Shown one piece after another: positions 6,898 through 64,000 of a stretch of 64,000 nucleotides of DNA. The stretch's first letter is position 1. Every line of letters starts with the position of its first letter. Below the pieces are notes generated by a model. The model searched no databases and was not told where the DNA came from. It worked only from the letters and a program-made list of their open reading frames with translations. Made by a program: the position numbers and the translations under genes. Source of the DNA: Eledone cirrhosa. Lineage: Eukaryota. The DNA lies in the NCBI GenBank assembly GCA_964016885.1, contig OZ024740.1:343294001-343358000 (forward strand). Reading direction: 5' to 3'.

Positions 6898-7233
6898 CAT
6901 TGAAAAAGAGAAAGAGACAGAAAGGGAAAGAGGGTGAGAGAGTAACGAAAATTTGATGCTTGAATAGAAAATACGTCTATATTAGAAAACGTGTTTCTAA
7001 TACATATTGACTCACATCTATCTATCTATCTTGATAGAGTAAGACACGCTTCGCATCGGCTCCGCTATTCCATCGGGATTTACCCTTGCTATTGTAAGTA
7101 CCGGATAAATTTTTTAGTGCAACACATTTGGAACACTAACCCCTGTTATTTAGGGAAACATTTTTGCATTTACCCCCTTTTTAGGGGGTAAAATAAATAT
7201 CTATTTTTGCCGAAAAATTTCTTTCTTGGCAGC

Positions 7234-9069
7234 ATGGCGGAAAAGATGGCAGACATGTCTGCCATTAGCTCTGCCACGCCCCCCAAGTCTGAAGAACAAA
7301 AAATAATTACAACAAAATTAGACATTGAAACAAACAAACAAAATGAAAAAACAAATGTTAAGGAAAATGAGCAAACAGAAAACAAACAAACAGAAAATAA
7401 TACAAATAACGACAGGGCAACTTTCGCCCAGAAAACAAAGCAATCCATTACATACACACCAATTGACCTAACTGCCGCCAGAGAAAAACTGGCCGAAGCA
7501 AAGAAACATATTGTTTTGGGGGAAAACGGAATGTTTTCCATTAACTCCCCCCCAGAATTCAAGAAAGCCAGAGCAGAAAACACAGTTATATACAGAACTA
7601 TACTAAACCAGTCAAGAAAGCCAGCACAGCCCAGCCAAATGGAAATAGAGTTAGTCCTAAAAGACTATATGAAGAATATTCTCTTCATACGAAAGGACCG
7701 ACTCTATGGCAGCATTTCGGTCCTAACAAGAGACAAAGAAACGGCGGTTCAGCTTTCCCTAAGCCCACTCTCGTCGACAACATATAGCTTCTATCCCTCC
7801 TACATGGGTAGAAGAACTCAGAGAATAAAAGTAAAAACAATGCTGCCCACAATGGACTTCTGGTGGGCTATTGCTGGCTTCATTGATATGGGCGAAGACA
7901 CTATGCTGTCAATGGGGAAGGCAACTGGAGATGCGTTCCTGGGAATGGGCCTCGACATACTAGTCCAAATGAGGCCCGAAAGAATAGCACAAATCCCGGA
8001 TCGCATCTGGCTGGATGACCTTACCCCAATAGACATAATTGTAGAGGGGAGAAGACCAGCATGCTATTTATGCATGGAAAGGGGACACGTTAAGGCTAAC
8101 TGCCCGAAACGTATCCCCCAAAAAGGACTATTGCCCACACCCACCACAAACAGTACACCAGCACCACCCACCTCCAAAAATACACTAATACCACACACAG
8201 CAAACAAAATACAGACACCACCAACCACAAACACAACACAAACATCACCACCACCAGCACCAAACACAAGCACGACACAAAAATCACCACCACCAACCAC
8301 AACACAAACATCACCACCACCATTACCAACCACAAGCACGACACAAACATTACCACCACCACCACCACAAAACCCATTCCAAACAAATAATAAAAAAAAC
8401 AGTAACAAATCTACCCCTCCCGCAAAAAAAAAACAACCACACAACACGTCCCTCCCACCTAGCGCTGAAGAGTTTCCCCCAACTTCTGAAGAAGAAGGAG
8501 GAGAAGCCTTCAGACAAGTTAAAAGAAAAAAAAGAAAACACACACCCAGCACACCACAAATAACCCACACACAAACACCAACTCCAATCAAAAACACCCC
8601 ACCCTCAACAAACAAAAATAAATCTGCGCCTCCCCTCTCCGAAACATTGACAGCATCACAAAAAAAGACGTTGCAATACACATATATAAATAAAGAAAAC
8701 AAAAAACTGGTTAAATTAATAAACAATAACCCTATGGTGCAGACCGAAGGGCCAAACTTTATCTCAACAGAGAACTTCACCCATTTAAAAATGATAAAGG
8801 TCCCTCTGGACCTTTATCGTTCCTTAAAAGAACAATTTAGACGGGACGTGAGCCCCCCCTGTTTAAAACCGTTGAATCGCGTCCTCTTGAAAGATTTCCC
8901 CATAACCGCCCCTCTCCCTGACACAACTCCAAATACCCCAACCCCACCACACACGTGTACCCCCACACCACCACAAAACATCCCTCCACCCAACACACCT
9001 GATGCCATGGAAATTACGCAACCCGGAGAGGTAAGTGCTTTTCTTTCTTCACTTTCAACACCAAAATAG
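7234..9069 (+). CDS. LINE ORF1 protein (gag-like CCHC zinc knuckle, Pro/Thr-rich linker)
   Basis: Open frame 7207-9069 with first ATG at 7234; CYLCMERGHVKANC knuckle; VEGRRP motif shared with family B ORF1. Confidence 0.9.
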   Translation: MAEKMADMSAISSATPPKSEEQKIITTKLDIETNKQNEKTNVKENEQTENKQTENNTNNDRATFAQKTKQSITYTPIDLTAAREKLAEAKKHIVLGENGMFSINSPPEFKKARAENTVIYRTILNQSRKPAQPSQMEIELVLKDYMKNILFIRKDRLYGSISVLTRDKETAVQLSLSPLSSTTYSFYPSYMGRRTQRIKVKTMLPTMDFWWAIAGFIDMGEDTMLSMGKATGDAFLGMGLDILVQMRPERIAQIPDRIWLDDLTPIDIIVEGRRPACYLCMERGHVKANCPKRIPQKGLLPTPTTNSTPAPPTSKNTLIPHTANKIQTPPTTNTTQTSPPPAPNTSTTQKSPPPTTTQTSPPPLPTTSTTQTLPPPPPQNPFQTNNKKNSNKSTPPAKKKQPHNTSLPPSAEEFPPTSEEEGGEAFRQVKRKKRKHTPSTPQITHTQTPTPIKNTPPSTNKNKSAPPLSETLTASQKKTLQYTYINKENKKLVKLINNNPMVQTEGPNFISTENFTHLKMIKVPLDLYRSLKEQFRRDVSPPCLKPLNRVLLKDFPITAPLPDTTPNTPTPPHTCTPTPPQNIPPPNTPDAMEITQPGEVSAFLSSLSTPK

Positions 9070-12000
9070 ATCAATTGAGAGTTGGCTGTTTGAACGCGCG
9101 TGGCCTGAGCTCAGCTTGGAAGCAAGCAAAGCTTCTAAGTGACCTCAGGTCACAAAGTATAGATGTGATGGTTGTTTGCGAGAGTCGGATCAGCAGCGTG
9201 AGACAGCTGGCGCCCGCCTTCGATGACTTTGAGATGCACGCATCTCTCTGTCAACCCGGAGGCGGGGGGGGAGTTGCCGTACTGCTGGATAAACGTCTGA
9301 CTCTCGACGTACAGATTGTTCACTCGGACCCGGGGGGTCGATTACTGGTGCTGGACGTCGGAGGTGGTGAAGGCGGGGCTTTCAGACTGGTCGGTCTTTA
9401 TGCTCCCTTCGGGGCGGAGAGAGCCGACTTCTTCCAACGTCTGGAGACTTTTCTAGGAACGTCGCGTTCCCTGCTTTTAGTGGGGGACTGGAATGGAATC
9501 CTAGATGCGCGTTGGGACTATGCAGGGGCATGTCCCGATAGAGGGGGGTGTAGCAGCCTCAAGGGGTTACTCGATCGATTCGACCTGGTCGATAGATTTC
9601 GACTAGATTGTCCAACTGCGCCAACCTGGACCTGGGCAAACCGCAGTGGACAATCTAGATCGTACCTAGATAGGTTTTTGGTTAGGAGTAAGGATAGGGA
9701 CGTATTTAGTTGTCCAGAACTGATCATGGTTGGCTATTCAGATCACAAATTAGTGACCTGCGTGGTCAACCTTGATAGAACGCATAGACAGGGTCCCGGT
9801 TACTGGAAGATGAACTTGTCCTTACCGACAAAGAAAGATTACAGAAACCGGATTAGTAGCTTAGTTAAGATGCGGTTGACGGGAGCGATCGTCAACAGCA
9901 GGTGGTGGGTATCTCTAAAGAGAGAGATTAGAGTAAGTTCGATAGGTTACAGTAAGGAACTAGCGGCAAATAGAAATAGGAGGGAAAGGGAGTTAACAGA
10001 TAAACTAGAAGAGGCGATTAGGAGCGGAGACGTAGCCAGAGTGTTAGCGACGAGAACGGCATTGAGCCAGTTCTTTGACGCGAAGCACGAAGGCTGCGTT
10101 GTCCGAAGTAAAATACGTGCTTTAGGAAACGAGGGGACCAAAGCTGTTAGCTGGGCCCGCGTGACAGAAGCCAAGAGTGGGATTAAATCCACCATTCGGT
10201 CTTTGCGAGACCAGGATGGACGGGTGATCCTTGAACCTGAGCGAATGTGCGAGACCTTTCAAAGGCACTTTGCTCGACTGTTCGGAGGTGGCGGGGGGCC
10301 GGACGGGGATGTGGACTTCGGTCCATACCTCGACGGTCTACCGCGTCTTTCGAGCGGCGAAGCGGAGTGCTGCGAAGGGCCAATCACAGCCACTGAAATC
10401 GGGGAAGCGCTCAGCCAATACAGCAGACGCAAATCCCCGGGTCTCGATGGTCTACCATACGAACTTTATTTAGCTATGCCGGTCTTGTTCTCCGAACTCC
10501 TCGAGGCTGTCTATTGCAACTGGCAACAGAACGGGAGAATTCCCTGTTCTGTGACCAAGGGCGTGGTCACGCTAGTGAGGAAGGACGAGAGCAAGGGGGA
10601 CGACTTAAGTAACTTTAGGCCCATAACTCTGCTGAATGCAGAGTTACAGATTTTGGCCAAGGTGTTGACGAAGAGGTTGGCGCTTGTGGTGGGTGGTTTG
10701 GTGGGAGACGCGCAGACATGCGCTATCCCGTCCAGGTCCATTCACGACAACCTCCACCTCATGCGATACATCATAGAGAGGGTTGGCTACGAACCCGGCT
10801 TTGGTGGGGCCCTGATCAACTTGGATCAATCTAAGGCGTTCGATAGGGTCGACCATGGTTACCTGGATGCGGTGCTAGCGGCGGCGGGCTTCGGACCCGT
10901 TTTCAGGGGCTGGATTTCTGCCATGCACAGTGGCAACATCTACTCTAGGATTAAAGTAAACGGCTACCTCTCGGAGCCGTTTCAAATCACCCGATCCATC
11001 AGACAGGGGTGCCCCCTCTCCTCCCTTCTGTACGTATTGACTCTCGAGCCACTGCTGCGGAAGTTGGAGTTGCTGCGGGGCATACCCCTGGAACCGGGAT
11101 TGCACAAAGCGGTCTCGGCCTATGCCGACGACGTAACAGTAATGGTGGCGGACGCCTCGGAAATCGGGGCGATCGCCACCCTACTGGAGGAATACGAAAG
11201 GCTGACGGGGGCTAAGCTGAACCAGGACAAGTCGGTCGGTTTGCAACTCGGAACGTGGAGGGGCAAACCGATGCCGTTGGACGGTGTCGTCGGGCGGTGG
11301 ACGGAGGGCCCGGTGAAGCTGCTCGGGGTCTGGTTCGGACCGGACCTCCAGGTGGAGAAGAATTGGGGCGAGGTGACGAGCAGGGTGTTTGCGCTGACCC
11401 AGAAGTGGGCCAAGTGCAAACTATCACTGAAAGGTCGGGCGGAGGTGACGAACGCTTACATAGCGTCCGTCATCTACTACCGCCTGACCGTCGTGCCTTG
11501 CCCCAAGGAAATGCTCACCATCATGGAACGCATGCTCTTCCAGTTCCTCTGGAAGAAGCGGCCTCCCATGGTGAGGAGATCCATCTGCTGCCAGCACCCT
11601 TCGAAAGGAGGGCTGGGTATGCCGTGGCTGTTGATGCGTAGGCACGCATTGAGGCTACGGCATCTACAGGTATTCCTCAACGGTCAGCCGGTGTGGGCCC
11701 CGTTTGTGAGGCGAGCCTTCCCACAGCTCGTCTCGCTCACCGAACTGCAATCCTGGGTGAAGCAAAGACCGAGAAAACTGGGCAACTGGCACACTGAGTG
11801 TGCCCAGGCGCTCACGGCTATCTGGCAAGCGGACCCGACTGTCAGTGGAGAATCCACCTCGACATTCTATAGAGGGTTGGTGGCTAGCAGGGGCGACGAC
11901 ACCCTTGGAGAGTCGCTAGGCATGGAGGAGGACGAACTGGCCAGCCTGTTCGGTAGAACTTTCGGCCCGGGACCCATGGACAACTTCCAGAGGTCCCTAG

Positions 12001-12503
12001 CCTGGCAGTGTTACCGGGGGGCTCTGCCCGTTCGAGAAAAGCTCTACAGACACGGGCGCCCGGGCAGGGATCCCGCGAAAAAGATCTGTCCCAGATGCGT
12101 GCGCGACGAGGAAACCGTTGCGCATGCACTGGTACACTGCCCGGGCGTTGCCGATCTGTGGGGCTACGTCGAACGACTGCTGTCGCGTGTGGCGCCGATT
12201 CGATTAACCGCCGAGTCTGTGGTGAACATCAAGCCGCCTCCTCCCTTCAGAAATGAAGCAGAGGCGGTCTTTCTGTGCGTAATAGCCATGATGAAAGAGG
12301 TTGTGTGGTGGACGCGCCTGAAAGGTCTGAGGTCGGGTGACTTTCTCTCCGGCCATCACCTGGTTTACTTCTTCCGATACCACTTCGGAAGAAGAATCAG
12401 GATGGAGAGAGAAGTGCTTGGTCCCAGACAGTTTTATGAAAGGTGGGTGAAAGAAGCGAGAATGGCCCGTGTAAATGGGCCTTCTCTCTACATTGTTCTG
12501 TAG
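9066..12503 (+). CDS. LINE ORF2 protein: apurinic endonuclease, reverse transcriptase, C-terminal zinc finger
   Basis: NARG, GDWN, SYLDR and SDH (APE); KSPGLDGLP, FRPITLLN, LDQSKAFDRV, RQGCPLS and AYADD (RT); CPRC..ETVAHALVHC. Uninterrupted, but there is no ATG at the N-terminus. Confidence 0.95.
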   Translation: MDQLRVGCLNARGLSSAWKQAKLLSDLRSQSIDVMVVCESRISSVRQLAPAFDDFEMHASLCQPGGGGGVAVLLDKRLTLDVQIVHSDPGGRLLVLDVGGGEGGAFRLVGLYAPFGAERADFFQRLETFLGTSRSLLLVGDWNGILDARWDYAGACPDRGGCSSLKGLLDRFDLVDRFRLDCPTAPTWTWANRSGQSRSYLDRFLVRSKDRDVFSCPELIMVGYSDHKLVTCVVNLDRTHRQGPGYWKMNLSLPTKKDYRNRISSLVKMRLTGAIVNSRWWVSLKREIRVSSIGYSKELAANRNRRERELTDKLEEAIRSGDVARVLATRTALSQFFDAKHEGCVVRSKIRALGNEGTKAVSWARVTEAKSGIKSTIRSLRDQDGRVILEPERMCETFQRHFARLFGGGGGPDGDVDFGPYLDGLPRLSSGEAECCEGPITATEIGEALSQYSRRKSPGLDGLPYELYLAMPVLFSELLEAVYCNWQQNGRIPCSVTKGVVTLVRKDESKGDDLSNFRPITLLNAELQILAKVLTKRLALVVGGLVGDAQTCAIPSRSIHDNLHLMRYIIERVGYEPGFGGALINLDQSKAFDRVDHGYLDAVLAAAGFGPVFRGWISAMHSGNIYSRIKVNGYLSEPFQITRSIRQGCPLSSLLYVLTLEPLLRKLELLRGIPLEPGLHKAVSAYADDVTVMVADASEIGAIATLLEEYERLTGAKLNQDKSVGLQLGTWRGKPMPLDGVVGRWTEGPVKLLGVWFGPDLQVEKNWGEVTSRVFALTQKWAKCKLSLKGRAEVTNAYIASVIYYRLTVVPCPKEMLTIMERMLFQFLWKKRPPMVRRSICCQHPSKGGLGMPWLLMRRHALRLRHLQVFLNGQPVWAPFVRRAFPQLVSLTELQSWVKQRPRKLGNWHTECAQALTAIWQADPTVSGESTSTFYRGLVASRGDDTLGESLGMEEDELASLFGRTFGPGPMDNFQRSLAWQCYRGALPVREKLYRHGRPGRDPAKKICPRCVRDEETVAHALVHCPGVADLWGYVERLLSRVAPIRLTAESVVNIKPPPPFRNEAEAVFLCVIAMMKEVVWWTRLKGLRSGDFLSGHHLVYFFRYHFGRRIRMEREVLGPRQFYERWVKEARMARVNGPSLYIVL

Positions 12504-13134
12504 GTGAAGAAGTGAAGAGGAAAGGGGGAGCGCCTCCTCTCTGGGCTTCCCCCGCGAAAAGAGTTGCACACTTTTCGGGGGTATGTGCAATCCCCAACAC
12601 GCCCCCTCCCTTTTGAGGACTTTTTATTGTTATATTATTATTGTTATTCCTTTTTTCTTTACTCGATTTATGTAAACTCCCCCACTGTGTAAATGTCCCC
12701 TTCTTTTGTGCCCTCGTGGCAAATAAATAGAAATTTATCTATCTATCTATCTATCTATCTAACTATTACTCTCTCTCTCTCTGACACACACACACTCTCT
12801 CTCTCTCTGACGCCCCTCTCTCTCTCTGTCTCTAGCTGTCTTTATCTCTCTTTGTCTCGTTATAGTAAAAATCAATCTCAGAATTAAAAAAAAGAACAGA
12901 AAATACAAAAAAGCATCCAGAAATATAGCTGGATGTTATTATTGGAGTAAAATAATATGAGATGATTCTGGAAATATTTAAAATTCTCTGGAATCTATGA
13001 ATATCTAATACAACGAAATATTATGAGTATATACTTGTATTTGTATCTATTTCCTTTAAAAAAATATTCCTAGGTTAGTTTGTATCCATTATTTGTATAT
13101 TTGTAGATGTTACAGCCATGAATATTGCGTCATA

Positions 13135-15385: not shown

Positions 15386-15517
15386 GATGGATGGATGCTT
15401 GGATGGATAGATGGATGGAAAGAAGGATGAATAGATGGATGGATGTTTGGATGGGTGTATAGAATGGTTGTATGGATAGACGTATAGATAGATGTAGAAT
15501 TGAATAGATAGATAGAT

Positions 15518-15923
15518 AAATTTTTTTATTAGCCACAAGGGCACAAAAGAAGGGGACAAATACAAATGGGGAAGTTTACATACAGGTATATGAAAAAAAT
15601 AAAACTATTAATAAAATAACAAATAACAATTGAAATCCCCGATAGGGGGGAGGCGTTACACAGGGGTTGTACACCCCCCCCCAAAAAAAAATGTACAACC
15701 CTCATCTCCAGGAGCACCAAGAGTGAGTACACCCCTCCTCTCTTTCTCTTTTTCCTCAACCTACAGGCTTATGTAGAGAGAAGGCCCAACCACTCGGGCC
15801 ATCTTTGCCACATTAACCCACCTTTTATAAAATTTACTGGGTAACAGCACCTCTCTCTCCATCCTGATTCTTCTTCCAAAATGGTATTTGAAATAAAGGA
15901 ATCACTTGTTGGCCGGAGAGAAA
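15518..15923 (-). mobile_element. 5'-truncated Tx1 LINE related to family A, in (ATCT)n
   Basis: The minus strand matches the family A ORF2 C-terminus (ttctctccggcca..., gggccttctctctacat..ctgtag) and 3'UTR (tgtccccttcttttgtgccct.gtggc). GATA repeats lie on both sides. Confidence 0.9.
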
Positions 15924-16355
15924 GATAGATAGATACACAGATAGATGTATAGTTAGATAGTTGAATGGCGAGGTGGAAGGATAGGTGGATGGTTGGATGG
16001 TTAGTCGAATGGTTGGATCGATTTATCTTTGGATAGATTGATACTTGGGTCGATGGTTGGATGGTTGGATGGTTGGATGGATGGATGTACGGATAAAGTG
16101 GCGGATGGACGGATTGATGAATAGGTGAATTATTGATAGATAGATGGTTGGATGGTTAGGTGGATGGATCGTTGATGGAAGAAGGTGGGATAGTTGGCTG
16201 GATGGCTAGATGGCTGGTTGGATGGCTGGTTGAGCGGGTGAATGGGCGGGTGGGAGGAAGAACAGCTGAATGAGAAGAAAAAAGTGGAATTTGACATGGA
16301 GAGAGAAAAGTGCGAGGGTAACATTCAAAGAAAAATGATATGAAGTGAAAGGAAA

Positions 16356-21920: not shown

Positions 21921-22179
21921 AATCCCAGCTCCCACAGTACGTGTTTCACAGGTAGTCGGCCGAACGACACAAGCCACAGATCTGTGCTGGCAGTTATACT
22001 ATGTCTTCTCGGCCAAACTGAGAAGCACAGTGCACAGTCCGACATGCTGTGATGAATGGCATGAGATGCAATGTGACAGTCAGTTGTTGGCAAAATGGTC
22101 GCCGTATAGGTCGTGGAGTGGGTTGTGGCAGTTGTGGTGCAGCTAATAAAGTGGAGGTAGTAATAAATCAAATGTGGTG

Positions 22180-24895: not shown

Positions 24896-25009
24896 AGTGT
24901 ACAGTGACTAAGGCAGAAAGGTGGTAGTATTGAATAATGATGGTAGTGGTGGTGATGGTGGTAGAAGTTATGTGCTGAGTGGTGGGGATAGTCATGTTGG
25001 CTGAAGTAG

Positions 25010-26400: not shown

Positions 26401-26630
26401 TGGTAGTGGCGGTAATGATGATAGTAGTGGCGGTGGTGGCGGCGGAAGTAATAGGAATGGTGGTGGAGGGGTAGAGGTAGTGGCGGCGATGGTTGTAGTG
26501 GTGGTGGTGGCAGCGGTGGCGGAGATAGTTTAACTAAGGAATACCTGGGGGTAAAGTTAGGAAACGTTTACAAAAGAATAGAAGTATCCGTTACATACAC
26601 AGCCGCATACATTCAGAGAAACACGCACAC

Positions 26631-46580: not shown

Positions 46581-47055
46581 CATAAATAATATATATATAT
46601 ATATGTATGAATATATAAATATACATGTATATGCATGTGTGTGCTTCGAATTATATATATAATACCTTCACCTAAATGTCTGCAGAAACACACACACACA
46701 CACACACACACCTACATACAATGATATATGTGTGCATATCTTTGTGCATGCTTGCATATGTTTATATTTAAATACATTTGTGTATGTATCAGAGGTAAAT
46801 ATCGCTTTGAAAATTCATGCGCCCTACATTGTTGATATGGGGTGTACTAAAATGTTTTAAATTGTAGATGATGGATAACGCATTTGAAATTGTGGTAACC
46901 TAAAACAGTACTTCGTTTACACACATTCACACACTTACGCATACACACGCACATGCCCACACTCACAGTCTTATACATACATTAATATATACACACATAT
47001 GCATACATTTATACATACATACGTACATACATACATACGTACGTACGTACATACA

Positions 47056-47084
<29 letters not shown>

Positions 47085-47086
<2 letters not shown>

Positions 47087-48670
47087 GGGCCAAATATCAA
47101 TGACATCAAGAAACAATTGGACCTCATTACACAATTTTCAACCGACATCAAAATGAAATTTGGTGAGTCCAAGTGTGCATATTTGGCAGTAAAACGTGGA
47201 AGAGCTGTGCCCTCCTCTAGAAATCTAGATATGAACGGCCTGACAATACAACCTCTGCAGTCAGGTGACAACTACAGATATCTTGGACAGGATGAGAATG
47301 TCAGATATGATGGACCCATAAATAAGGAGAGAACCAGAACTGAATACCTCAGAAGAGTAAAAAAAATATGGTCATCAGAACTGTCAGCATACAACAAATA
47401 CATTGCCCACAATACCTATGCTGTGCCAATTATAACGCCAACATTTGGCCTACTGAACTGGTCATTGCAAGAACTACGTGAGATGGATGTTAGAACTCGT
47501 AAACTTCTCAGTGTTACTGGGAACTTTAACATCAATGGTGATGTGGATAGGCTATACTTCTCACGCAAGGAAGGTGGCCGGGGTCTAAAATCAATATTAA
47601 CAACATATGAGACCCGGATAGTAACACTGAAGCAACACCTTCAACAGAGGAAAAAGGTTGGCGACCATCTTGCTCAGGTTTATGAGCATGAAAAAAGAAA
47701 TATCATTAGAATAGCGACTGATCTGGAGGAGAGATATGGAATAAAGCCTGATATAAATCTCTCACCCAGAGAAATCGGAAGATCCTATTCAATGTTCAAA
47801 CAAGAAAAAAAAATTGACCAATTTACAGATAAAGTTGTGCATGGATACTTGAGGCGTAAAACACAGACCATAGAGGGGATAAACCACTCAAAAAGCCTGG
47901 CATGGAGTTCCGACAAGTTTATGACATCACACCTTGAGGGATATCTCTATGCAATACAGGAACAAGAACTCCCTACCAAATATCTGCTGCACAAAAGAGG
48001 AGGGCCAGCAGCTGACAATAAATGTAGGCTATGTAAAACAAAGATCGAGGATGTAAGCCACATTGTTGCCAGCTGCGAAAGAATGTCATCTCGCTACTAC
48101 CTCCCCATGAGACACGATGGGATAGCTAGAACTATCTGGAACGCACTTCGGAAAACAAAATTAACAACAAACGAGGAAGAATATATTGAGACAGATGGCA
48201 CTAAGGAATACTGGTGGAACCTGAAAATAAAAACTGCCACCAAATTAAAGCACAACCGGCCTGATATTGTAGTTTGGGACCACACATTGAAAACGTGTTC
48301 TATTGTGGAGATCAGCTGCCCACTTGATGTAAACGTTGTCAGAAAAATACAGGAGAAGGAGGACATCTACGGACCATTGATGAGGAGTTTACAAATCCAA
48401 TATCCAAGATACACCTTTAGCTTCATACCCATCATTATTGGTGCTACGGGTTATATACCAACCCGCTTGGACCAAAGTATGACCGAACTTGGATTTGCGG
48501 ACAAAAAGCGTAGCTCCCTAATTCATAGTCTACAAATGGCTGCGATAGCTGGCACCTTCAAAATATGCAAAACATTCTTGCGATTCAAGGGATGACAATT
48601 TCTTTTCTTTTACAACCTTGCCACCAGGAAGGTGGCCGGTCAAAAAAATATACTCGAAATTAAGAGAAAG
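47085..48670 (+). mobile_element. 5'-truncated R4/Dong-like RLE LINE inserted in (ACAT)n; open frame to 48595
   Basis: RT C-terminal part (MKFGESKCA, YRYLG, DVDRLYFSRKEGGRGL), CRLC..EDVSHIVASC knuckle, RHD, and NRPD..EISCP restriction-like endonuclease. ACAT repeats lie on both sides. Confidence 0.92.
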
Positions 48671-53659: not shown

Positions 53660-54343
53660 ACTGAGACGCTCATCCTCTCATGGAAGCTGCACAGTGCACT
53701 CTACATGTGAATGGAGTTCCACTGAAGCAGGTGGAGAAGTTCAAGTATCTCAGGGTCATGTTCATGTGCAATGGATGGCAGGAGGCTGAGTTAAGTGCAA
53801 GAATTGCAGGAGCTGGTTTAATAATGCGCCATCTTCAGCATTCAGTAAACAGAAAAAGGGAGGTAGGTGCAAAAGCCAAACTCGCTATCTTCTATTCAGT
53901 ATTCGTGCCAGCTCTTACCTATGGTCATGAATCTGGGATAATGACCAAAAGAATACGATCGCGAATAGAAGCCGCCGAAATAGGGTTCCTCCGAAGTGTC
54001 TTTGGAGTAACGTTACTCAATAAAGTGCGAAGTTCGGAGATCAGAGAGTTACTCCAGGTAAAGCAGCTATTTCTCCGAATTGAGAGATCACAGCTCCGAT
54101 AATATAGGCATGGGCTAAGAATTTCTGAGGAAAGAATCGCTGAACAGATTGTACGGACAAAGTCAACAGGTAGGAAACCCAGGGGTAGATCCCGAGCAAT
54201 ATGATTGGATAACATCCATGTGCTTAGCTGGTCTCGCTTGGGGATACAGCCGGATCAGTTGGGGATGGTTGCTTCTACAGGACCCGTTGGAAGGAGTGTT
54301 TGAGGACGTTGCCCCCACGACCCTCTCAGGAATAAGTGGGTGG

Positions 54344-54346
<3 letters not shown>
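53660..54346 (+). mobile_element. 5'-truncated RTE-clade (Expander-like) LINE, degenerate
   Basis: VNGVPLKQVEKFKYL, FVPALTYGHES, IEAAEIGFLR and TGRKPRGRSR; ends ataagtgggtggtgaa followed by (TAA)n. Confidence 0.8.
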
Positions 54347-54386
<40 letters not shown>

Positions 54387-54388
54387 CA

Positions 54389-55448
54389 ACAACATGTTCC
54401 ACAAGAGGAGTGATGTCGATAGACTCTACTTAAGGAGATCTGAGGGTGGAAGAGGTCTTATCAGCATAGAGGACTGTGTTCAGATGGAGAAAAACAACCT
54501 ACACAAATACGTGACTGATAGTAAGGAGCCAATGCTCAGAACTGTGCTGAAGGAGGGGACAATAGGCCAGGGGATGTCCAAGGAGGAAATAACATCAAGG
54601 AGAAAGAGCAGCCCTCAGGAAAAATCCCTTCATAGTACCTTCTTTGAGAAAAGTGAATTTAGAGGTCCACAGACATGGAACTGGTTGAAAAGAGGAGACC
54701 TTAAAAAGGCTACAGAAGGAATGTTAATGGCTGCGCAGGAGCAGGCCCTCAAAACGAAGTGGTTGAAACACCACATTTACAAGGAGGAGGCTAGCCCACT
54801 GTGCAGGATCTGTGGAGAGAGAGAGGAGACTGTGGCTCACATTGCATCCGAGTGTAAACACCTAGCCCAGACTCACTATAAGGGCTTGAGACATGATGTG
54901 ATGGGCAGGGTGATCCACTGGCACCTATGCAAAGTAAACAATTTACCACATTCTGAGAAGTGGTATGAGCATAAGCCAGAGACGGTGATAGAAAACGATC
55001 AGGTGAAGGTGCTGTGGGATTTTAGGATACAGACGGACAAGAAACTGGAACACAATAGACCTGACCTGGTGGTTTTGGACAAAGAAAACAGATCGTGCCT
55101 GATTGTGGATGTGGCCTGCCCATTCGACACGAGAGTGCAAGAGAAGGAGAGGGAGAAAATTAACCGATACCAGGACTTAAAGTGGGAGGTAAAAAGGATT
55201 TGGAACTGCCATGAAGTCAAAGTGATCCTGATTGTCATAGGCGCACTAGGGACTATCTCAAAAAGTTTCCAGGGATGGTTAAAGAAAATTGGCCCATTCA
55301 CGCTTTTTGGAATGCTTCAAAAGGCATTCTTGCTGGGAACAGCAAGAACCCTCCGATACGTCCTGAATATCTGAGGCTGCAGGTAGTGGCTTGATATTCA
55401 TTTCAACAAACTTTCCAGTTAACTAACATCAATGACTGAGACTCAAAA

Positions 55449-55450
<2 letters not shown>
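54389..55450 (+). mobile_element. 5'-truncated Dong/R4-like RLE LINE copy 1 in (AAT)n; frame ends 55374
   Basis: DVDRLY..GGRGL, CRICGEREETVAHIASEC, RHD and NRPD..DVACP; flanked by (AAT)n. Confidence 0.93.
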
Positions 55451-55503
<53 letters not shown>

Positions 55504-55506
<3 letters not shown>

Positions 55507-56780
55507 GCATAAAGAACAAAAAAATGAAGGAATTGTTTAGAACTGAATACATTCGGAGAGTAAGGAGCGTATTGAAGTCACATCTGAACAGCAGAAATGC
55601 CATAAGCGCAGTAAATTCCCGAGCTGTGTCTATTATTAGGTACAGTGCGGGAATTCTGAGATGGAATGTTGCTGAACAAAAAGAAATGGATAGGAAGACT
55701 AGGAAGCTATTGACTATCTACAACATGTTCCACAAGAGGAGTGATGTCGATAGACTCTACCTAAGGAGATCTGAGGGTGAAAGAGGTCTTATCAGCATAG
55801 AGGACTGTGTTCAGATGGAGAAAAACAACCTATACAAATACGTGACCTATAGTAAGGAGCCAATGCTCAGAGCTGTACTGAAGGAGGGGACAGTAGGCCA
55901 GGGGATATCCAAGGAGGAAATAACATCAAGGAGGAAGAGCAGCCTTAAGGGAAAATCCCTTCATAGTACCTTCTTTGAGAAAACTGAATTTAGAGATCCA
56001 CAGACATGGAACTGGTTGAGAAGAGGAGACCTCAAAAAGGCTACAGAAGGAATGCTAATGGCTGCGCAGGAGCAGGCCCTCAAAACGAAGTGGTTGAAGC
56101 ACCATATCTACAAGGAGGAGGCTAGCCCACTGTGCAGGATCTGTGGAGAGAGAGAGGAGACTGTGGCTCACGTTGTGTCCGAGTGTAAACACCTAGCCCA
56201 GACCCACTATAAGGGCTGGAGACACGATGTGATGGGCAGGGTGATCTACTGGCACCTATGCAAAGTAAACAATCTACCACATTCTGAGAAATGGTATGAG
56301 CATAGGCCAGAGGCGGTGATGGAGAACAGTCAGGTGAAGGTGCTGTGGGATTTTAGGATACAGACGGACAAAAAACTGGAACACAATAGACCTGACCTGG
56401 TGGTTGTGGACAAAGAAAAAAGATCGTGCCTGATTGTGGATGTGGCCTGCCCGTTCGACACGAGAGTGCAAGAGAAGGAGAGGGAGAAAATTAACCGATA
56501 CCAGGACCTAAAGTGGGAGGTGAAAAGGATTTGGAACTGCCATGAAGTCAAAGTGATCCCGATTGTCATAGGCGCACTGGGGACTATCTCCAAAGGTTTC
56601 CAGGGATGGTTAAAGAAAATCGGCCCCTTCACGCTTTTTGGAACGCTTCAAAAGGCATGCTTGCTTGGAACGGCAAGAACCCTCCGATACGTCCTGAATA
56701 TCTGAGGCTGCAGGTAGTGGCTTGATATTCAATCCAACGGACTTTCCAGTTAACCAACATCAATGACTGAGATTCAAGGA
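55504..56780 (+). mobile_element. 5'-truncated Dong/R4-like RLE LINE copy 2 in (AAT)n; frame ends 56705
   Basis: Same family as copy 1 with a longer 5' extent; flanked by (AAT)n. Confidence 0.93.
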
Positions 56781-57055
56781 ATAACAATAACAATAATAAT
56801 AATAATAATAATGTTTTCTTTATTAACCACAAGGGTTCACATAAAGTAGACATTAAGGACAGTACAGGACAATACAGGACGGTACAAATGGGCATTTCTG
56901 CGTGTAAAAAAACAGAGGTTGAAATAAAATAACAAAGAAAAATTCCCCAATAGGGGGGAGACTTCCAAGGGACATTTGTGGAGAAAGCCCATTAAAAGAC
57001 CACAGTGGCCCTGACCACCAGGGCAAGTGCCCTCTCCCAGTTTCCCACCTTTAAT

Positions 57056-60000
57056 TTACAGACACATACTCAGAGAAGGCCCATTCATTCGGGCCATACT
57101 TGCTTCTCTCACCCATCTTTCAACAAAATGCTGGGAAGAGAGCACTTCCCTCTCTACCCTGATTTTCCTTTTCAAATGAAATTTGAAAAAGTTAATCAGG
57201 GCATCATCGAAGAGGTAAGTGCTCGTCTTCAGCCCTTTCAAACGTGTCCACCATACTATCTCTTTCGCCATGGCCACCAGACAGATAAAAACTGCCTGCC
57301 CTTCCAGGCTAAAGGAAGGGGGCGGGGCAATCCTCACGATGGACTCAGCTGATAGCTGGATCCGTCCTACACGTGACAGCAGGTGTTCGACATAAACCCA
57401 CAAGTCAGCAATGCTCGGACACTGGACGAGTGCGTGCAGGACGGTTTCGTCGCCCTGCGCGCATCTCGGACATGCCCGGCTGACGGCACCTCCATGCCTG
57501 TAGAGTTTATCCCGAACTGGCAAAGCTCCTCGGTAGCACTGCCAGGCCAGGGATTTCTGGAAGTTGTCCATAGGCCCCGGCCCGAAAGTCCTTCCGAAGA
57601 GATTGGCTAGTTGATTTTCGTCGACGCCTAGAGTTTCTCCAAGTACGTCGTCGCTCTTCCCCTCCACTAATCCCCTATAGAACGCCAAGGTGGAGTTTCC
57701 ACCGATCACATTGCCCGATTGGTCGAGGGCTGTGAGCGGCTGAAGACATTCCAGTCTCCAAGCGCTCCCTCTCGGTCTTCGCTTGACCCAGGACTGCAGC
57801 TCCGTCAAGGAGACGAGCTGGGGAAAAACGTGTCTTGCAAACGGCGACCACACCTGATCACCGTCGAGGAAGAGGTGGAGATGTCGTAGCCTGAGCGCGT
57901 GTCTGCGCATCATCAGCCACGGCATGCCCAGCCCTCCACGTAGCGGGTGTTGACAGCAGATGGACCGCCTGACCATCGGAGCGCGTCCCTTCCACAAGAA
58001 GCGAAAGAGCAAACGCTCCAGCGCAGTCAGGCGGGGCTTAGGACAAGATACGACGGTCAGGCGGTAGTAGATGACGGACGCGATGTACGCGTTAGCCACC
58101 TCCGCTCGACCTTTCAGGCATAGCTTCCTCTCGGCCCATTTCTGGGTGAGAGAAGCCACCCTGCTCATCACCTCGTCCCAGTTTTTGTCCGTCTTGAGGT
58201 CTGGACCGAACCAGACCCCTAGCAATTTAACCGGTCCGTCCGTCCAGCGCCCGACGACGCTGTTGGACGGCATGGACCTGCCTCTCCAGGTGCCGAGCTG
58301 CAGGCCCACTGACTTTTCCTGGTTGATCATTGCTCCTGTCACCGCTTCGTATTCTCTTAGTGTAGTGCCGATCGCCTCGATGTGTTTGGCGTTCGACACC
58401 ACTACGGTGACATCGTCGGCATATGCTGACACGGGTCTTCCTCATCCTAGTTCGCGCGGGGTCCCCCTCAACGTCTCCAGTTTGTGCAGTAATGGCTCAA
58501 GAGTCAATACGTACAATAGGGACGAGAGGGGACATCCTTGGCGGACCGAGCGCATGATGTTGAACGGTTCCGAAAGGTGACCGTTCACTCTCACTACAGA
58601 GCAGATGTTGCTGTGCATGGCAGCGATCCAGCCTCTGAAGACGGGCCCAAAACCAGCCGCCTTCAGGACTGCCGCTAGGTAACGATGGTCGACCCTATCG
58701 AAGGCTTTCGACTGATCTAAATTGATCAAAGACCCACCCGTGCCAGGTTCCCTAGCTACCCTCTCTACGATGTATCGCATGAGGTGGAGGTTGTCGTGGA
58801 TGGATCGGTCGGGAATGGCGCATGTCTGTGCCTCTCCCACCAGACCACCAACGACAAGCGCCAACCTCTTTGCTAGCAACTTGGCCAAAATCTTGAACTC
58901 TGTGTTTAGCAGAATTATGGGCCTAAAATTATCTATGTTATCCCCCTTGTTCGGATCCTTTATCAGCAGCGCCACCGCTCCTCGGCTCACAGAGCTGGGA
59001 ATTCTACCGTTTTGTTGCCAGTTGCAGTAGACGTCCGCCAAGAGGCCTCCGAACAAGTTTGGCATTTGTACGTAAAGTTCATAGGGCAGACCATCCAAAC
59101 CAGGCGATTTACCCCTTGTGCAACTAGTCATTGCATCCCGTACTTCAGCGGTTGTTATCGGCTTTTCGCAACACTCCGCCTCAGTGGCCGAAAGCCGCGG
59201 CAGTCCGTCGAGGTAGACACTAAAGTCCATCCCTCGATCCGGCCCGCCACTGCCCCCGAACAGTTGAGCGAAGTGTCGCTGAAAAGCTTCACACATTTGC
59301 CCGGGATCGAGTAGCATGCGCCCGTCGTGGTCCACCAAAGACCGGATCGTGGCTTTGTTGCCACGGCGCGCCTCCGCCACTCGGGCCCATTGAACGGCTT
59401 TCGTCCCCTCGTGTCTGAGAGCACGCACCCTAGCTCTGACAACGCAGCATTCGTGCTTTGCATTGAAGAATTGGTCAAGGGCCAATTTCGCTGCAAGTAC
59501 ATCGGTCGCGATGCCTTTGCTAAGCGCCTCATCTAATTTTCTAACTAATTCTCCCTCTGCTCTATTTTTCTCTATTGCTAAAGTCTTACTAAACCTAATG
59601 GACTCTATTCTAATTGCTCTTTTCAGAGCAAACCACCACTTGTTGTTGACGATGGCCCCCGTCAACGCCCGCTTAACTAGTTCGCTAATCCGGTCTCTGT
59701 AGGCCTTGCGCGCTGGTAAGGACGCGTTTAGCTTCCAGTAGCCGGGTCCTCGTCTATGAAGCCTATCTAAGTCAAGCACACAGATCACGTATTTGTGGTC
59801 CGTGTAGCTGACTATCTTGAATTGTGGACAGCCTATGCTAGACCTATCTATTTCCCTACAAAATACTCTATCTAGATATGATCTGGATGACCCTATGCGA
59901 TTTGTCCAAGTCCACATTGGTACATTCGGGAAATCCATTCGGTACCTGTCAGACAGTTCAAAACGTCTGAGCAGGTTGGTGAGACTCTTGCACCCTCCTT

Positions 60001-60475
60001 CCCTATCCGCTAATCCCACACAATCCCAGCGTGCATCTAAGATCCCGTTCCAGTCGCCCACTAACACTAAAGAGCGGGACGTTCCAAGAAAGGTCTCCAG
60101 ACGCCGGAAGAAATCAGGCCGCCCTGCTCCTGTCGGGGCATAGACGGCCACTAACCTGAAAGCTTGCCCGTCTCCGCTGGTCACGTCCAGCACCACCAAC
60201 TTACCTTCGGGGTCCAGGAAGATTGCCCGTATGGCAAGATCCAAACGTCTCCGAAAAAGCACAGCAACTCCTCCCCCCTATCCCGGACGGCTGGGAGATG
60301 CGTACACATCGTAGCCGCCGAAGATCGGTGCGAAAGCCTGTGCTTCGGAGATTCTGGTCTCGCTGATGGTCACTACATCTATGTTTAGTGAACTGAGGTC
60401 GTTGAGCAGGTGGCCCTGCTTCCATGACGACCCAAAGCCACGCGAATTTATGCTGCCTATTCTGAGTGAGGTCAT
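57056..60475 (-). pseudogene. Family B ORF2 (APE-RT-CCHC) with two in-frame stops
   Basis: ORFs 60278-60475, 58442-60262 and 57056-58432 are in one frame, split by TAG (60280-60278) and TGA (58444-58442). NSRG, GDWN, QGCPLS, AYADD and CPRC are present. Confidence 0.92.
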
Positions 60476-60509
60476 GTTGAAAAGGAGTGGAAAAGATGGG
60501 AAAGACCAC

Positions 60510-62504
60510 TTACCTTACTTCTCGTAGGGGAAGGACGGTTTTTCCATCCTTTTCACTGCTTGTGGCCTCCTCAGGAAGGATGTCCTTATAAATCCTCCTG
60601 AAGAGTGCTTGTCGGAAGTCTCCGATGTCTTTGGGGAATTTTTGTTTTAGTGTCATGTACGTTTTCTGTGTGATGCGAGTGATTTGTATGTGTGGAGGTG
60701 GTGTGAATTTTGGGGTTGTTGTGTAGTCTTTTTCTGTGATGCTGGTGTTGTGTTGGATGTAGTGTAATAATTGGTTGTTGTTCAAATTTAATGCTGTGTA
60801 GTGTGTATCGTTTTGGTTGTTTTGTTTTGTTTGCGTTTGTTGTGGGTTTGTTTCTGTTTCGCATTTTGGTGACTTTTGTGGTGTAGGTGATGGTGGCGTT
60901 GGGGTTAATGATGGTGATGGTGTTGGTGTTTGGGTTGATGGGGTTGGTGATGCTGGTGTGGATGGTGGCATATCTGTCCTAACTTTTTTGTTTGTTAATT
61001 TATTTGTTTCCCTCTGTATTTTGTTTTTGGAGGGGGAAGGAAGAGAATTTTTTCTTTTTTGGTTTCTTTTTTTTTCCGGATATCGTTTCCCACCCCTCGT
61101 CGTCACAATCTGTCTCCAGTTGTGATAGGCCGGGGAGTGGAAAATCCTCCACAGCCGTTAGTTTTGGTTGTGGCGTGGTGGATGATGTAGGCGCTGGTGC
61201 TAGTTCTGAAGAGTTGGGTGGTGGTGGTGTTGGATTTGCTGGTCGTGGTGGTGGTGTTAGTTTTGCTACTGTTGCTGGGGTTGTTGCTGTTATAGTTGCT
61301 TCTGTTGTTGCTGCTACAGTTGTTGCTGCCATCTCTGCTACTGGTGGTGTTGATGGTTGTGTAACTGGGGTGGGTAGGAGAGGTGGCCTCAACCTTTTAG
61401 CCTGAGGGCAGAAAGCCCTTAGGTGGGTTCCTTCACCACAAACGACACACCTAGGTCTTCTGCCCTCGACAATTACCGTGAGGTGGCTGCCGTCAGTGAG
61501 GTCTATTACCTCTGGGATCTCCTCAATGCTTTTTTGGTCCGCTTGGATCAGGAGCTCCATCCCAGATCCGGACCAGTTCTCCTGCTTTTCTTTTGCTATT
61601 GCTATTATTTTCGTGTTGGCTTCGATGCCGGTGAGGACGGCCGCTATTAGCCAGGGAATTTCGATGGCCGGTGGAACGTGGGTCACCCTGATCTTCACGA
61701 GTCTCTGGCCACAATAGCTTGGGACGAGTGTGAAGTCGTCACTTCTTAATGGGGCCATGGAGTGTTTTCTAGCCTCCTCTGGTGTTTCAAAGAACACGTC
61801 CACGGTTCCATACTTTTGCCCACGTCTGATGTGGGTTTTTCTTGCCCACACATGTCCCAAAGCTTTTGGGATTTGGGACTCGGATGCCCGTTCCACTCGG
61901 CGCGATTTTACATTTATTGTTCTATACGACACGGTGCATAGGCGCCGATGCTCCATTTTATTAGGTGGGGGGGGGGTGAGGCTGACCCTGTACCCATCTT
62001 TCTTTACCATTTGTTTGGCATTTTCTAAATCCTCCTGAGTTACCGTAAATGCTTCGAACTGTTTTGCTACTCTGGCGAAACTGAGGGTTGGTTTTATAAT
62101 GTCATTGTTGTTGTTGTTGCTATCGTTATTTGTGTTAATATTAATTTTAGTTTCAGTTGTGGTGGTGGTGACGTCAGTCGTCTTTGGTGGGGAAGAGTCC
62201 ATTTTGCTTGATTTCATCTCGACATCACGAGTTAATTTATTTTTTCTTCTTTTGTTTCTGTTGTCGCGGTGGTGATGGGGGTGGTGGTTGTCGCGGTGTT
62301 TGTGGTGGTGGAGGCTTTAACACCTGCAGTCATTGGTAATGGCGGGAAATGAATGTCTGCCTGAGACAAATTTAAAATATTGCTACTGCTTATATTTTTT
62401 GTCGTGTTGGCAAACGTAGTAACATTTACAATGGTGGTGTCGGTGTGAGGTGTTAATTTGTGAGAAAGGCCTTCAGCTGCCTGGTGCAGAGGTGAATTAG
62501 CCAT
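60510..62504 (-). pseudogene. Family B ORF1, frameshifted
   Basis: Three pieces (62232-62558, 61000-62217, 60510-61106); PSYCGQR..IRV and VEGRRP-CCHC align with family A ORF1. Confidence 0.8.
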
Positions 62505-62713
62505 TTTTTTTTCAAAGAAATTTTTTGATAATAATAAAAGTTTAAATTTTGGGCACAAGGCCCCAATCTTTTTGGGTGTCCTTTTCGGAAAACAATGTAT
62601 GTGCGCTTATAAACAGTTAACAATAAAATTTTCCATAAATGACAATTTTTAACAAACGGAAATAACAAACCTTTGCGGAGCTCACGATGATACGATTTAC
62701 TACGTAGGTCGCC

Positions 62714-62769
<56 letters not shown>

Positions 62770-62771
<2 letters not shown>

Positions 62772-64000
62772 TCTGCCCGTAATGTGGAAACTGTTGACGA
62801 GCATTGTGTCTGAGGAAATCTACCATCACCTCCACACAAACAACTTGTTACCGGACGAACAGAAAGGATGCCGAAAGAAGTCACGTGGTACAAAGGACCA
62901 GTTGCTTATTGATAAGATGGTAATGGGGAATTGCAGGAGGAGACACACTGATCTTGCCATGGGATGGATAGACTACAGAAAGGCATTTGACATGGTGCCT
63001 CATTCCTGGATCACCAAAAGCCTGGAGATCTTCAGGGTGGCGGATAACATCAGACAGTTGCTAGGCAGGAGTATGGGGTCCTGGGAGACAGAGTTGACAT
63101 CAACTGGAGTATCCTTGGGAAGCGTGAAGATCAAGAGAGGTATCTTCCAGGGAGATAGCCTGTCCCCTCTGTTGTTTGTCCTTGCCCTGATGCCCTTGAC
63201 CATTATGCTGCGAAAAGTGAGAGCAGGATACAAGTTGGGAAGGGGAGAGCTTACCATCAATCACCTCCTCTTCATGGACGATCTTAAGCTCTTCGGGAAA
63301 AGTGAGAAGGAGTTGGATGTGCTTGTTGACACTGTCCGTATTTTCAGCAGTGATATATGTATGCAGTTTGGTATTGGTAAATCTGGAGTCATTGTGATGA
63401 AGAGGGGTAGGTTGAGCAGAAGTAACGGGATCCAGATACCAACAGGTGAGATGATAAAGGAAATTGACTCTGAGGAAGGATACAAGTATTTGGGCGTTCT
63501 GGAGGCTGATGGCATAAAGAACAAAAAAATGACGGAATTGTTAAGAACTGAATACATTCGGAGAGTAAGGAGCGTATTGAAGTCACATCTGAACAGCAGA
63601 AATGCCATAAGCGCAGTAAATTCCCGAGCTGTGTCTATTATTAGGTACAGTGCGGGAATTCTGAGATGGAATGTTGCTGAACAGAAAGAAATGGATAGGA
63701 AGACTAGGAAGCTATTGACTATCTACAACATGTTCCACAAGAGGAGTGATGTCGATAGACTCTACCTAAGGAGATCTGAGGGTGGAAGAGGTCTTATCAG
63801 CATAGAGGACTGTGTTCAGATGGAGAAAAACAACCTATACAAATACGTGACCTATAGTAAGGAGCCAATGCTCAGAGCTGTACTGAAGGAGGGGACAGTA
63901 GGCCAGGGGATGTCCAGGGAGGAAATAACATCAAGGAGGAAGAGCAGCCTTAAGGGAAAACCCCTTCATAGTACCTTCTTTGAGAAAAGTGAATTTAGAG
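62770..64000 (+). mobile_element. 5'-truncated Dong/R4-like LINE copy 3 with RT core, running off the window
   Basis: Open frame [60 protein letters not shown]; from 63510 it is nearly identical to copy 2; preceded by (AAT)n. Confidence 0.93.

What the first reader, a model, noticed from the sequence alone, without database searches (positions are those of the whole stretch)
57040..60520. The same splice-site bracket is kept in divergent Tx1 family B
Family B has a very different ORF1, yet it ends GAA|GTAAG|GTAAGTGG (donor GTs at 60518 and 60513) followed by a pyrimidine run ending TTTCAAC, as in family A. Seven bases after its ORF2 stop comes AAG|GTGGG (57049|57048), a weaker acceptor at the equivalent position. 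Conservation of GGTAAGTG...TTTCAAC where no protein similarity is apparent argues for an RNA-level function, either splicing or U1 binding.
Basis: partly seen in the sequence, partly recalled or inferred. Interest (0 to 1): 0.75.

Follow-up and report, generated by a model that had tools for sequence, protein, structure and literature searches.

The report
RNA clamp around retrotransposon ORF2
In a group of octopus-type jumping genes (LINE retrotransposons), the RNA just before and just after the reverse-transcriptase gene can pair into a long helix, and a conserved splice-donor signal sits in that helix, which points to an RNA-level switch for how much of each of the element's two proteins is made.

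Summary
The donor AG|GTAAGT at the end of ORF1 is real. It recurs in family A and in a family with 41% ORF2 identity (71 of 71 junction matches), in three different positions relative to the ORF1 frame, and in 0 of 34 distant LINEs. The 'acceptor' at 57049 and the pyrimidine run are better read as two arms of a long-range duplex. In B, 60527-60456 pairs with 57079-57015 (51 bp), placing the ORF2 start opposite its stop. The same pairing appears in 4 of 4 close families (z -4.3 to -5.3) with some compensatory changes, but in only 1 of 24 distant LINEs. No acceptor position is shared by all families, and splicing is not shown. Best reading: a U1-type donor gated by the clamp yields an ORF1-only RNA, as in copia gag splicing (0.4). 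The rivals are U1 binding without splicing and control of ORF2 translation. B's ORF1 is homologous to A's in its core (34%).

The parts
56813..62713 (-). Element B: full-length two-ORF L1/Tx1-type LINE inserted in an (AAT)n run
   Evidence: Sequence and ends; Exo_endo_phos, RVT_1 and zf-RVT; best PDB match is L1 ORF2p, E 3e-49 for A's ORF2
60510..62504 (-). ORF1 of B with a CCHC knuckle, broken by frameshifts in this copy; its stop TAA (60512-60510) lies inside the second donor motif
   Evidence: indel rows near 61066 and 62239-62245 in other copies
60508..60521 (-). Tandem 5' splice-site motifs: GAA|GTAAGG (60518, ORF1 phase 0) and AAG|GTAAGT (60513, phase 2, 9 of 9 consensus)
60456..60527 (-). 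5' arm of the long-range duplex: ORF1 end, donor, pyrimidine run with TTTCAAC, ORF2 ATG and first codons
   Evidence: 51 predicted pairs, dG -62.3; z -4.3, 0 of 400 shuffles reach it, best partner among 273 windows of the element
57056..60475 (-). ORF2 (APE endonuclease, RT, zinc finger), broken in this copy by a frameshift near 60280 and a stop at 58444-58442; forms the loop closed by the duplex
60199..60207 (-). Second perfect donor motif inside ORF2 (first intron base 60204), on codons for E-G-K-L; role unknown
57015..57079 (-).
57309..57332 (-). Acceptor-like site 251 nt before the ORF2 stop, on a proline motif; same column in A (12250) and C; candidate only
   Evidence: AG lost in 11 of 50 family-C matches
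56898..56921 (-). Best acceptor-like site in B's 3' UTR (T run, CAG| at 56898), about 120 nt beyond the duplex; candidate only
   Evidence: 142 of 500 shuffles reach its score; no AG at this place in A or E
56813..56840 (-). 3' tail shared with A and E, with AATAAA at 56824
7032..12735 (+). Element A, a related LINE in an (ATCT)n run, with uninterrupted ORF1 and ORF2 frames
9009..9087 (+). 5' arm in A, with the donor GAG|GTAAGT at 9031 and ATA (9066) at the position of B's ATG
   Evidence: 57 predicted pairs, dG -72.1; z -5.1
12478..12550 (+). 3' arm in A; the ORF2 stop TAG (12501-12503) doubles as A's best acceptor-like site
15514..15924 (-). Copy E: 5'-truncated third relative in (ATCT)n; keeps a purine-rich 3' arm whose complement reads like a donor plus a pyrimidine run

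Best explanation
The ORF1/ORF2 junction holds two selected RNA signals. One is a U1-type 5' splice site at the end of ORF1. The other is the 5' arm of a 50-60 bp duplex whose partner is the end of ORF2 plus the first 3' UTR bases, so the whole 3.4-kb ORF2 becomes a loop with its start codon buried. Shown by computation: the motif, its conservation, the complementarity and its family specificity. Inferred: a share of transcripts uses the donor to splice ORF2 out to an acceptor at or beyond the 3' arm (in B more likely 56898 than 57049), giving an mRNA for near-complete ORF1 protein, which is needed in excess. The rest stay unspliced, translate ORF2 and are copied. The duplex can form only once the polymerase has passed the ORF2 stop, so it would set the balance, either by bringing the donor within about 120-250 nt of a 3' UTR acceptor or by covering it. 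The direction is not resolved.
For: Donor 8-mer within 45 nt before the ORF2 start in A, B and C; 71 of 71 family-C junction matches (loci overlap, so some units count twice); 0 of 34 distant LINEs score 8 of 9 or better. The donor sits where splicing leaves ORF1 almost whole: 38 nt before the stop in A, on the stop in B, 1 nt after it in C. Two of 4 further A/B-lineage ORF1 proteins that reach the C-terminal domain end in G-K-S or G-K, which fits the same motif in a third phase, and one more has G-K in its last 8 residues (weak). C and D also carry a donor 15-43 nt after the ORF2 stop and an acceptor-like TAG further on; in C both are kept in 12 of 12 variants, the donor varying only between A and G at +3. 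Duplex: z -5.1, -4.3, -5.3, -4.4 and 0 of 400 shuffles each; best window of the element in A, B and C; each junction pairs best with its own family's end. In 18 family-C arm pairs, 12 of 56 base pairs vary, 3 by double changes, and 7 of 216 cells break. Two double changes between A and B in one ungapped register. Precedent for the logic in copia elements (PMC5580714, passages).
Against: No spliced RNA or spliced DNA copy was seen. No acceptor is shared by all families, and only D's exceeds shuffles. D has the duplex but no ORF1-end donor. In A the best acceptor is buried by the duplex (unpaired probability 0.43 to 0.19), while in B, C and D the candidates lie outside it, so one geometry does not fit all. 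The duplex changes donor accessibility little (A 0.44 to 0.29, B 0.34 to 0.24 and 0.41 to 0.47, C 0.37 to 0.39). Whole-RNA folding keeps the clamp in B (78 pairs) but not in A (0). In D a second window scores as well (-72.3 versus -72.4), and D's junction pairs almost as well with B's end (-65.6 versus -66.4). The sense strand is favoured in A and B by about 9 kcal, not in C, and the antisense strand is favoured in D. The A/B double changes are few, and other registers also show one each.
Confidence: 0.4

Rival explanations
1. U1 binds the motif without splicing. It protects the long transcript from premature cleavage and polyadenylation, or holds it in the nucleus, and the duplex brings the site next to the 3' end or releases U1 once ORF2 has been transcribed.
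For: A strong donor lies in or beside the duplex in 4 of 4 families, on the 5' arm (A, B), the 3' arm (D) or both (C), while acceptors are not conserved. All 28 distinct family-C 3' UTRs keep the stretch between donor and acceptor, although a copy lacking it would still encode ORF2. U1 at the EVD donor blocks premature termination (PMC5580714, passages); a retained 5' splice-site motif inhibits export and 3' processing (PMC4380460, abstract).
Against: It does not explain why the donor tracks the ORF1 stop so closely, nor the invariant acceptor-like TAG in 12 of 12 family-C variants.
Confidence: 0.2
2. The duplex controls ORF2 translation and the donor is a secondary passenger. The ORF2 start is buried, ribosomes finishing ORF1 melt the helix and allow re-initiation, and pairing start to stop limits or recycles ORF2 synthesis on the same RNA.
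For: The ORF2 start codon is paired in 4 of 4 families, directly opposite the stop in A and B. The duplex persists in D without the donor. C and D have stop-start overlaps (TGATG, TAATG) like the SART1 coupling signal (recalled).
Against: It cannot account for an exact 8-mer kept in three frames while its pairing partner differs among A, B and C, nor for the donor lying partly in bulges of the helix.
Confidence: 0.2
3. One reading: ORF2 is an intron from 60518/60513 to the AAG at 57049, equivalent to A's TAG.
For: AG|GT follows the ORF2 stop in A, B and E; A's site is a good acceptor (17 of 20 pyrimidines).
Against: The B site is AAG with a weak tract, 7 nt off A's position, and paired with the pyrimidine run. 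Better sites exist at 56898 and 57309. There is no matching site at the stop in D.
Confidence: 0.08
4. A short intron joins ORF1 to ORF2 in frame (60513 to CAG at 60462 or 60453), making a fusion protein.
For: The phases match in B: donor phase 2, both CAGs phase 2.
Against: A's donor is phase 0 and none of its 4 nearby AGs is; in C the donor lies after the ORF1 stop.
Confidence: 0.04
5. The complementarity works on the DNA or cDNA strand (for example during reverse transcription) or is an inherited inverted-repeat relic, and the donor is coincidental.
For: Antisense pairing is as strong in C and stronger in D; perfect donors also occur inside ORF2 of B; A and B are close relatives.
Against: The arms have turned over in sequence while staying complementary family by family; there are 6-10 G-U pairs per helix, and A and B favour the sense strand; chance for the 8-mer is about 6e-4 per family.
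Confidence: 0.08

Closest known systems
Ty1/copia gag subgenomic splicing (Arabidopsis EVD, Drosophila copia; PMC5580714, passages read)
   Same: A 5' splice site at the end of the structural-protein frame of a retroelement; splicing gives an RNA for the structural protein only; U1 at that site also blocks premature termination.
   Different: Those are LTR elements with one gag-pol frame and demonstrated spliced RNA. Here it is a two-ORF LINE, no spliced RNA has been shown, the acceptor is not fixed, and the donor lies in a long-range duplex, which the passages read do not describe.
Ty1 genome cyclisation CYC5/CYC3 (PMC7969010, passages read)
   Same: Long-range pairing between distant parts of a retrotransposon RNA.
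   Different: CYC joins the two ends of the RNA for reverse transcription. Here the 5' arm is internal, covers the ORF1 end, a donor and the ORF2 start, and pairs with the ORF2 stop region.
Human L1 splicing and SpIREs (PMC5860796, abstract read)
   Same: Functional splice donors and acceptors inside a LINE RNA.
   Different: L1 events remove 5' UTR or ORF1 parts and are described as dead ends that inhibit retrotransposition. Here the donor is conserved at the ORF1 end across deep divergence, which suggests the element keeps it.
Microsatellite-targeting Tx1 elements Kibi and Koshi (as described in PMC4494074, passages read)
   Same: Two-ORF APE/RT LINE inserted in simple repeats (B in AAT; A and E in ATCT).
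   Different: Other repeat units and an octopod host lineage; no junction donor or clamp in the passages read.
Earlier scan note e1-7881459 (RNA clamp around L1/Tx1 ORF2 in another animal genome; unchecked AI note)
   Same: Pairing of the stretches before and after ORF2, kept while the sequence changes.
   Different: Other genome; its few lines mention no splice donor. It is a lead, not independent support.

Membership tests
Tx1 clade of non-LTR retrotransposons | Two ORFs; ORF2 with APE endonuclease, RT and a C-terminal zinc finger | tested here: met
   Pfam Exo_endo_phos, RVT_1, zf-RVT; closest solved relative L1 ORF2p, E 2.9e-49 versus 2.5e-23 for R2
Tx1 clade of non-LTR retrotransposons | ORF1 with a CCHC knuckle | tested here: met
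   C-x2-C-x4-H-x4-C invariant in A, B, C and D
Tx1 clade of non-LTR retrotransposons | Target-sequence preference | tested here: inconclusive
   3 of 3 copies in the window sit in simple repeats, but the window is rich in such repeats and no genome was held
Tx1 clade of non-LTR retrotransposons | RT phylogeny grouping with reference Tx1 rather than L1 elements | not testable with these tools
Copia-type subgenomic splicing | Conserved 5' splice site at the end of the structural ORF | tested here: met
   A, B and C have it, D does not
Copia-type subgenomic splicing | Conserved acceptor that defines the intron | tested here: not met
   Candidates differ by family; only D exceeds shuffles; the A/B/C-shared site is lost in 11 of 50 C matches
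Copia-type subgenomic splicing | Spliced subgenomic RNA demonstrated | not testable with these tools
   Only contigs of DNA or unknown kind could be laid
Spliced retrocopies (SpIRE, or HAL1-like ORF1-only elements; HAL1 recalled) | Genomic copies joined precisely at GT-AG | tested here: inconclusive
   None among the 15 shown of 2,294 joints; 0 of 71 family-C junction matches; contigs drop rare forms
Long-range RNA duplex (Ty1 CYC-like) | Complementarity above shuffles, specific and kept by compensatory change | tested here: met
   covariation is modest (3 double-change pairs in C, 2 between A and B)
Long-range RNA duplex (Ty1 CYC-like) | Forms on the sense RNA in cells and has a function | not testable with these tools
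   Strand test mixed; whole-RNA fold positive for B, negative for A

The most novel reading that the evidence does not exclude
A clade of cephalopod LINEs uses a retrovirus-like RNA switch: a long-range helix that closes only after ORF2 is transcribed decides whether a U1-bound donor at the ORF1 end splices ORF2 out (ORF1-only mRNA) or the RNA stays full length for ORF2 translation and copying, giving LINEs a splicing-based way to set the ORF1p:ORF2p ratio.
Probability: 0.3. Interest if true: 0.8.

Novelty: new variant of a known kind. Interest (0 to 1): 0.62.

Why it matters
How bicistronic LINE RNAs make much ORF1 protein and little ORF2 protein, and how they escape splicing, is a long-standing question (own knowledge). 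Splicing of L1 RNA is described as a dead end (PMC5860796, abstract). A donor and an ORF2-spanning helix kept by selection would show the opposite strategy in a LINE, and they give exact coordinates for a reporter test. L1-Tx1 families are among the recently active LINEs of Octopus vulgaris (13 families, 421 insertions; PMC13282606, passages), so public octopus RNA data could settle the splicing part quickly. No description of either feature in Tx1 turned up in paper searches; subscription journals and Repbase notes were not searchable.

Tried and rejected
RNA test: no RNA holder listed. Four runs were laid as contigs at 85% likeness. Of 2,294 joints, 15 were shown; none starts at 60519/60514 and none has intron-type ends. 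Contigs show presence only, so this decides nothing. Depth along the element was not used. Run X16 gave 25 records and no information. One X7 contig keeps a 20-nt block at 56889-56908, which holds the CAG, between unlike flanks; it is too short to count. No whole genome was held for the window. Viral contigs held no relative. Rfam: 0 matches in the window and 4 loci. The word-index search with A's ORF1 core found 0 proteins and the profile search for longer proteins found 1, already known. TTTCAAC as a motif of its own was rejected (absent in C and D). ORF1-ORF2 fusion as a shared mechanism was rejected on phase. AAG|GTGGG as a second donor in B was rejected because the family reads GTGGAA. 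A TURBS-like TGGGA in C was rejected because it varies among copies. The shared acceptor-like site 251 nt before the stop stays a weak candidate. Searches of G001 for ORF1 ends and 3' UTRs scored only 40 of 71 candidates each; the 3' UTR matches were all near full length, and they were not checked one by one for ORF1-only units. For the clamp test on distant LINEs, 24 of 87 loci had an intact ORF with flanks; the other 63 were dropped. One L1 splicing paper was not held. In some searches the start index of family C was off by one base, which does not alter the windows materially.
Full report
What is there. The window is AT-rich animal DNA full of microsatellites. Element B runs from 62713 to 56813 on the minus strand between (AAT)n runs; element A runs from about 7032 to 12735 on the plus strand between (ATCT)n runs; a third, 5'-truncated relative (E) lies at 15924-15514. 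ORF2 has endonuclease, RT and zinc-finger domains and its closest solved relative is L1 ORF2p. ORF1 proteins closest to A and B that carry a species name come from Octopus sinensis, O. vulgaris, O. bimaculoides and Argonauta hians, so the lineage is octopod by inference. The clade label Tx1 rests on architecture; no reference Tx1 sequence was available for a tree.

Checking the observation. All quoted letters and coordinates are right. The premise of deep divergence is not. ORF2 of A and B is 67-68% identical and the ORF1 cores align at 34% over 253 aa. The A/B comparison alone therefore says little, and more distant relatives were needed.

Relatives. A scan of prokaryote genome bins returned animal DNA in one bin, made of head-to-tail arrays of two further families, C (L081-L111, L113-L117, L120, L123) and D (L112), each 40-42% identical to A in ORF2. 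The host is not identified. In C the ORF1 stop is followed at once by G|GTAAGT, 10 nt before the ORF2 ATG, in 71 of 71 matches to the ORF1-end motif (loci overlap, so units can count twice). The motif is thus in three relations to ORF1: coding E-V-S in A, overlapping the stop in B, and non-coding in C. Protein constraint cannot keep it. Chance is about 6e-4 per family, and 0 of 34 distant L1/Tx1-like loci (21-33% identity) have a donor scoring 8 of 9 within 70 nt of the ORF2 start (the consensus used is recalled). Against over-reading: D lacks it, and B has a second perfect donor inside ORF2. C and D instead or additionally have a donor shortly after the ORF2 stop; in 12 of 12 non-redundant C variants (from 28 distinct, 50 counted) it reads GT[AG]AGT and an acceptor-like TAG follows about 250 nt later. 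At protein level, 12 of 173 ORF1-like proteins were closer to A/B than to C/D; 4 appear to reach the C-terminal domain, of which 2 end in G-K-S or G-K, 1 has G-K in its last 8 residues and 1 has nothing of the kind. This is weak, as no DNA was available for them.

An unchecked note from another genome (e1-7881459) suggested testing for pairing around ORF2. The 90 nt around the ORF2 start pair with the 130 nt around the ORF2 stop at -69.5 (A), -69.7 (B), -76.9 (C) and -66.4 (D) kcal/mol, z -4.3 to -5.3, reached by 0 of 400 dinucleotide shuffles in each family. In A the helix has 57 pairs. The start codon lies opposite the stop in A and B, about 45 nt before it in C and 21 nt before it in D. With the family's A at 57044, TTTTCCAC faces its perfect complement (seen directly in the sequence). 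Among 18 distinct arm pairs of family C, 12 of 56 base pairs vary, 3 of them by changes on both sides, 7 of 216 cells break, and unpaired columns vary more often (9 of 33 and 9 of 26) than paired ones (8 and 7 of 56). These copies are related, so the counts are not independent events. Among 24 testable distant LINEs, 1 had z of -3 or lower and 1 other ranked first, none both. Results against: the whole-RNA fold keeps the clamp in B but not in A, and the strand preference is mixed.

Acceptors. The 57049 site is weak and explained by pairing. Better candidates are A's stop TAG (12503), B's CAG at 56898, a site 251 nt before the stop shared by A, B and C on a proline motif, and 3' UTR sites in C and D. 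Only D's exceeds shuffles (11 of 500), A and E have no AG where B has 56898, and the shared site is lost in 11 of 50 C matches. Splicing to these sites would leave ORF1 nearly whole, adding 3 codons in A and 14-19 in B via 56898. An in-frame ORF1-ORF2 fusion is possible only in B.

How it most likely works. Shown: a conserved donor motif and a conserved, family-specific complementarity that brackets ORF2. Inferred: U1 binds the donor while ORF2 is being transcribed; some RNAs are spliced to an acceptor near the 3' end and make ORF1 protein only; the helix, which can close only after the ORF2 stop is made, sets the share and buries the ORF2 start until a ribosome finishing ORF1 opens it. Because the donor is at or next to the ORF1 stop, the spliced RNA would have its stop at or after the last junction and so avoid nonsense-mediated decay (rule recalled). 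Whether the helix helps or blocks splicing is open: it changes donor accessibility little and buries A's acceptor but not B's.

Comparison with known systems. It works like copia gag splicing with its dual U1 role (PMC5580714, passages) and resembles Ty1 cyclisation in being a long-range helix (PMC7969010, passages). It cannot be filed under either: no conserved acceptor and no spliced RNA for the first, a different position for the second. In human L1, splicing is described as inhibitory (PMC5860796, abstract); TART introns were found in antisense RNA (PMC1636488, passages). Searches returned no paper; others returned listings whose titles and abstract openings describe neither feature in Tx1; PMC13282606 has no occurrence of 'splic', 'intron' or 'ORF1' in its main text. 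No supplements were read, and Repbase entries and subscription papers were out of reach; consensus notes there could bear on novelty.

Verdict. Observation partly confirmed, interpretation partly supported. The donor is real and selected, the proposed acceptor is probably one arm of an RNA clamp around ORF2, and splicing is untested. New variant of a known kind; interest 0.62.

Noticed in passing
window 54304-56812 and 62714-64000 (+): Three 5'-truncated copies of another LINE (RT plus a C-terminal CCHC and PD..D region, Dong/R4-like by recall) and element B are all stacked in the same (AAT)n run, B on the opposite strand. A further relative lies at 46904-48595.
   Followed up: partly
window 9066-9068 (+): A's ORF2 frame is uninterrupted but has ATA where B, C and D have ATG, overlapping the ORF1 stop; it is either a private mutation or a non-AUG start.
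   Followed up: no
window 15700-15790 (-): The 3' arm of truncated copy E has a complement that reads as a GTGAGT-type donor plus a pyrimidine run, which predicts the junction of its missing full-length family.
   Followed up: partly
L088 9460-9730 and L112 5457-5645: Families C and D hold a small intron-like unit wholly in the 3' UTR (donor 15-43 nt after the ORF2 stop, acceptor-like TAG 140-250 nt later), kept in all 28 distinct C copies examined.
   Followed up: partly
L081-L117 (G001): A bacterial genome bin contains dozens of head-to-tail units of animal LINEs (86 ORF2 matches): host contamination, and long tandem arrays whose target sequence was not identified (Rfam blank).
   Followed up: partly
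window 60204 (-); L112 2214; window about 7093 (+); L088 3777: Extra strong donor motifs lie 200-270 nt into ORF2 in B and D, and in the 5' UTR of A and C; they are possible further U1 sites.
   Followed up: no
window 60361-60754: In run X4 (another organism label) contigs alike to B's ORF2 are plentiful up to the junction, whereas B's ORF1 is covered by a few near-identical contigs, one ending at 60518; this hints at ORF1 turnover or swapping at the junction.
   Followed up: no
window 22174-26510: A 4.3-kb array of 24-, 57- and 72-nt repeats with long stop-free frames (up to 1184 codons), mucin-like if coding.
   Followed up: no
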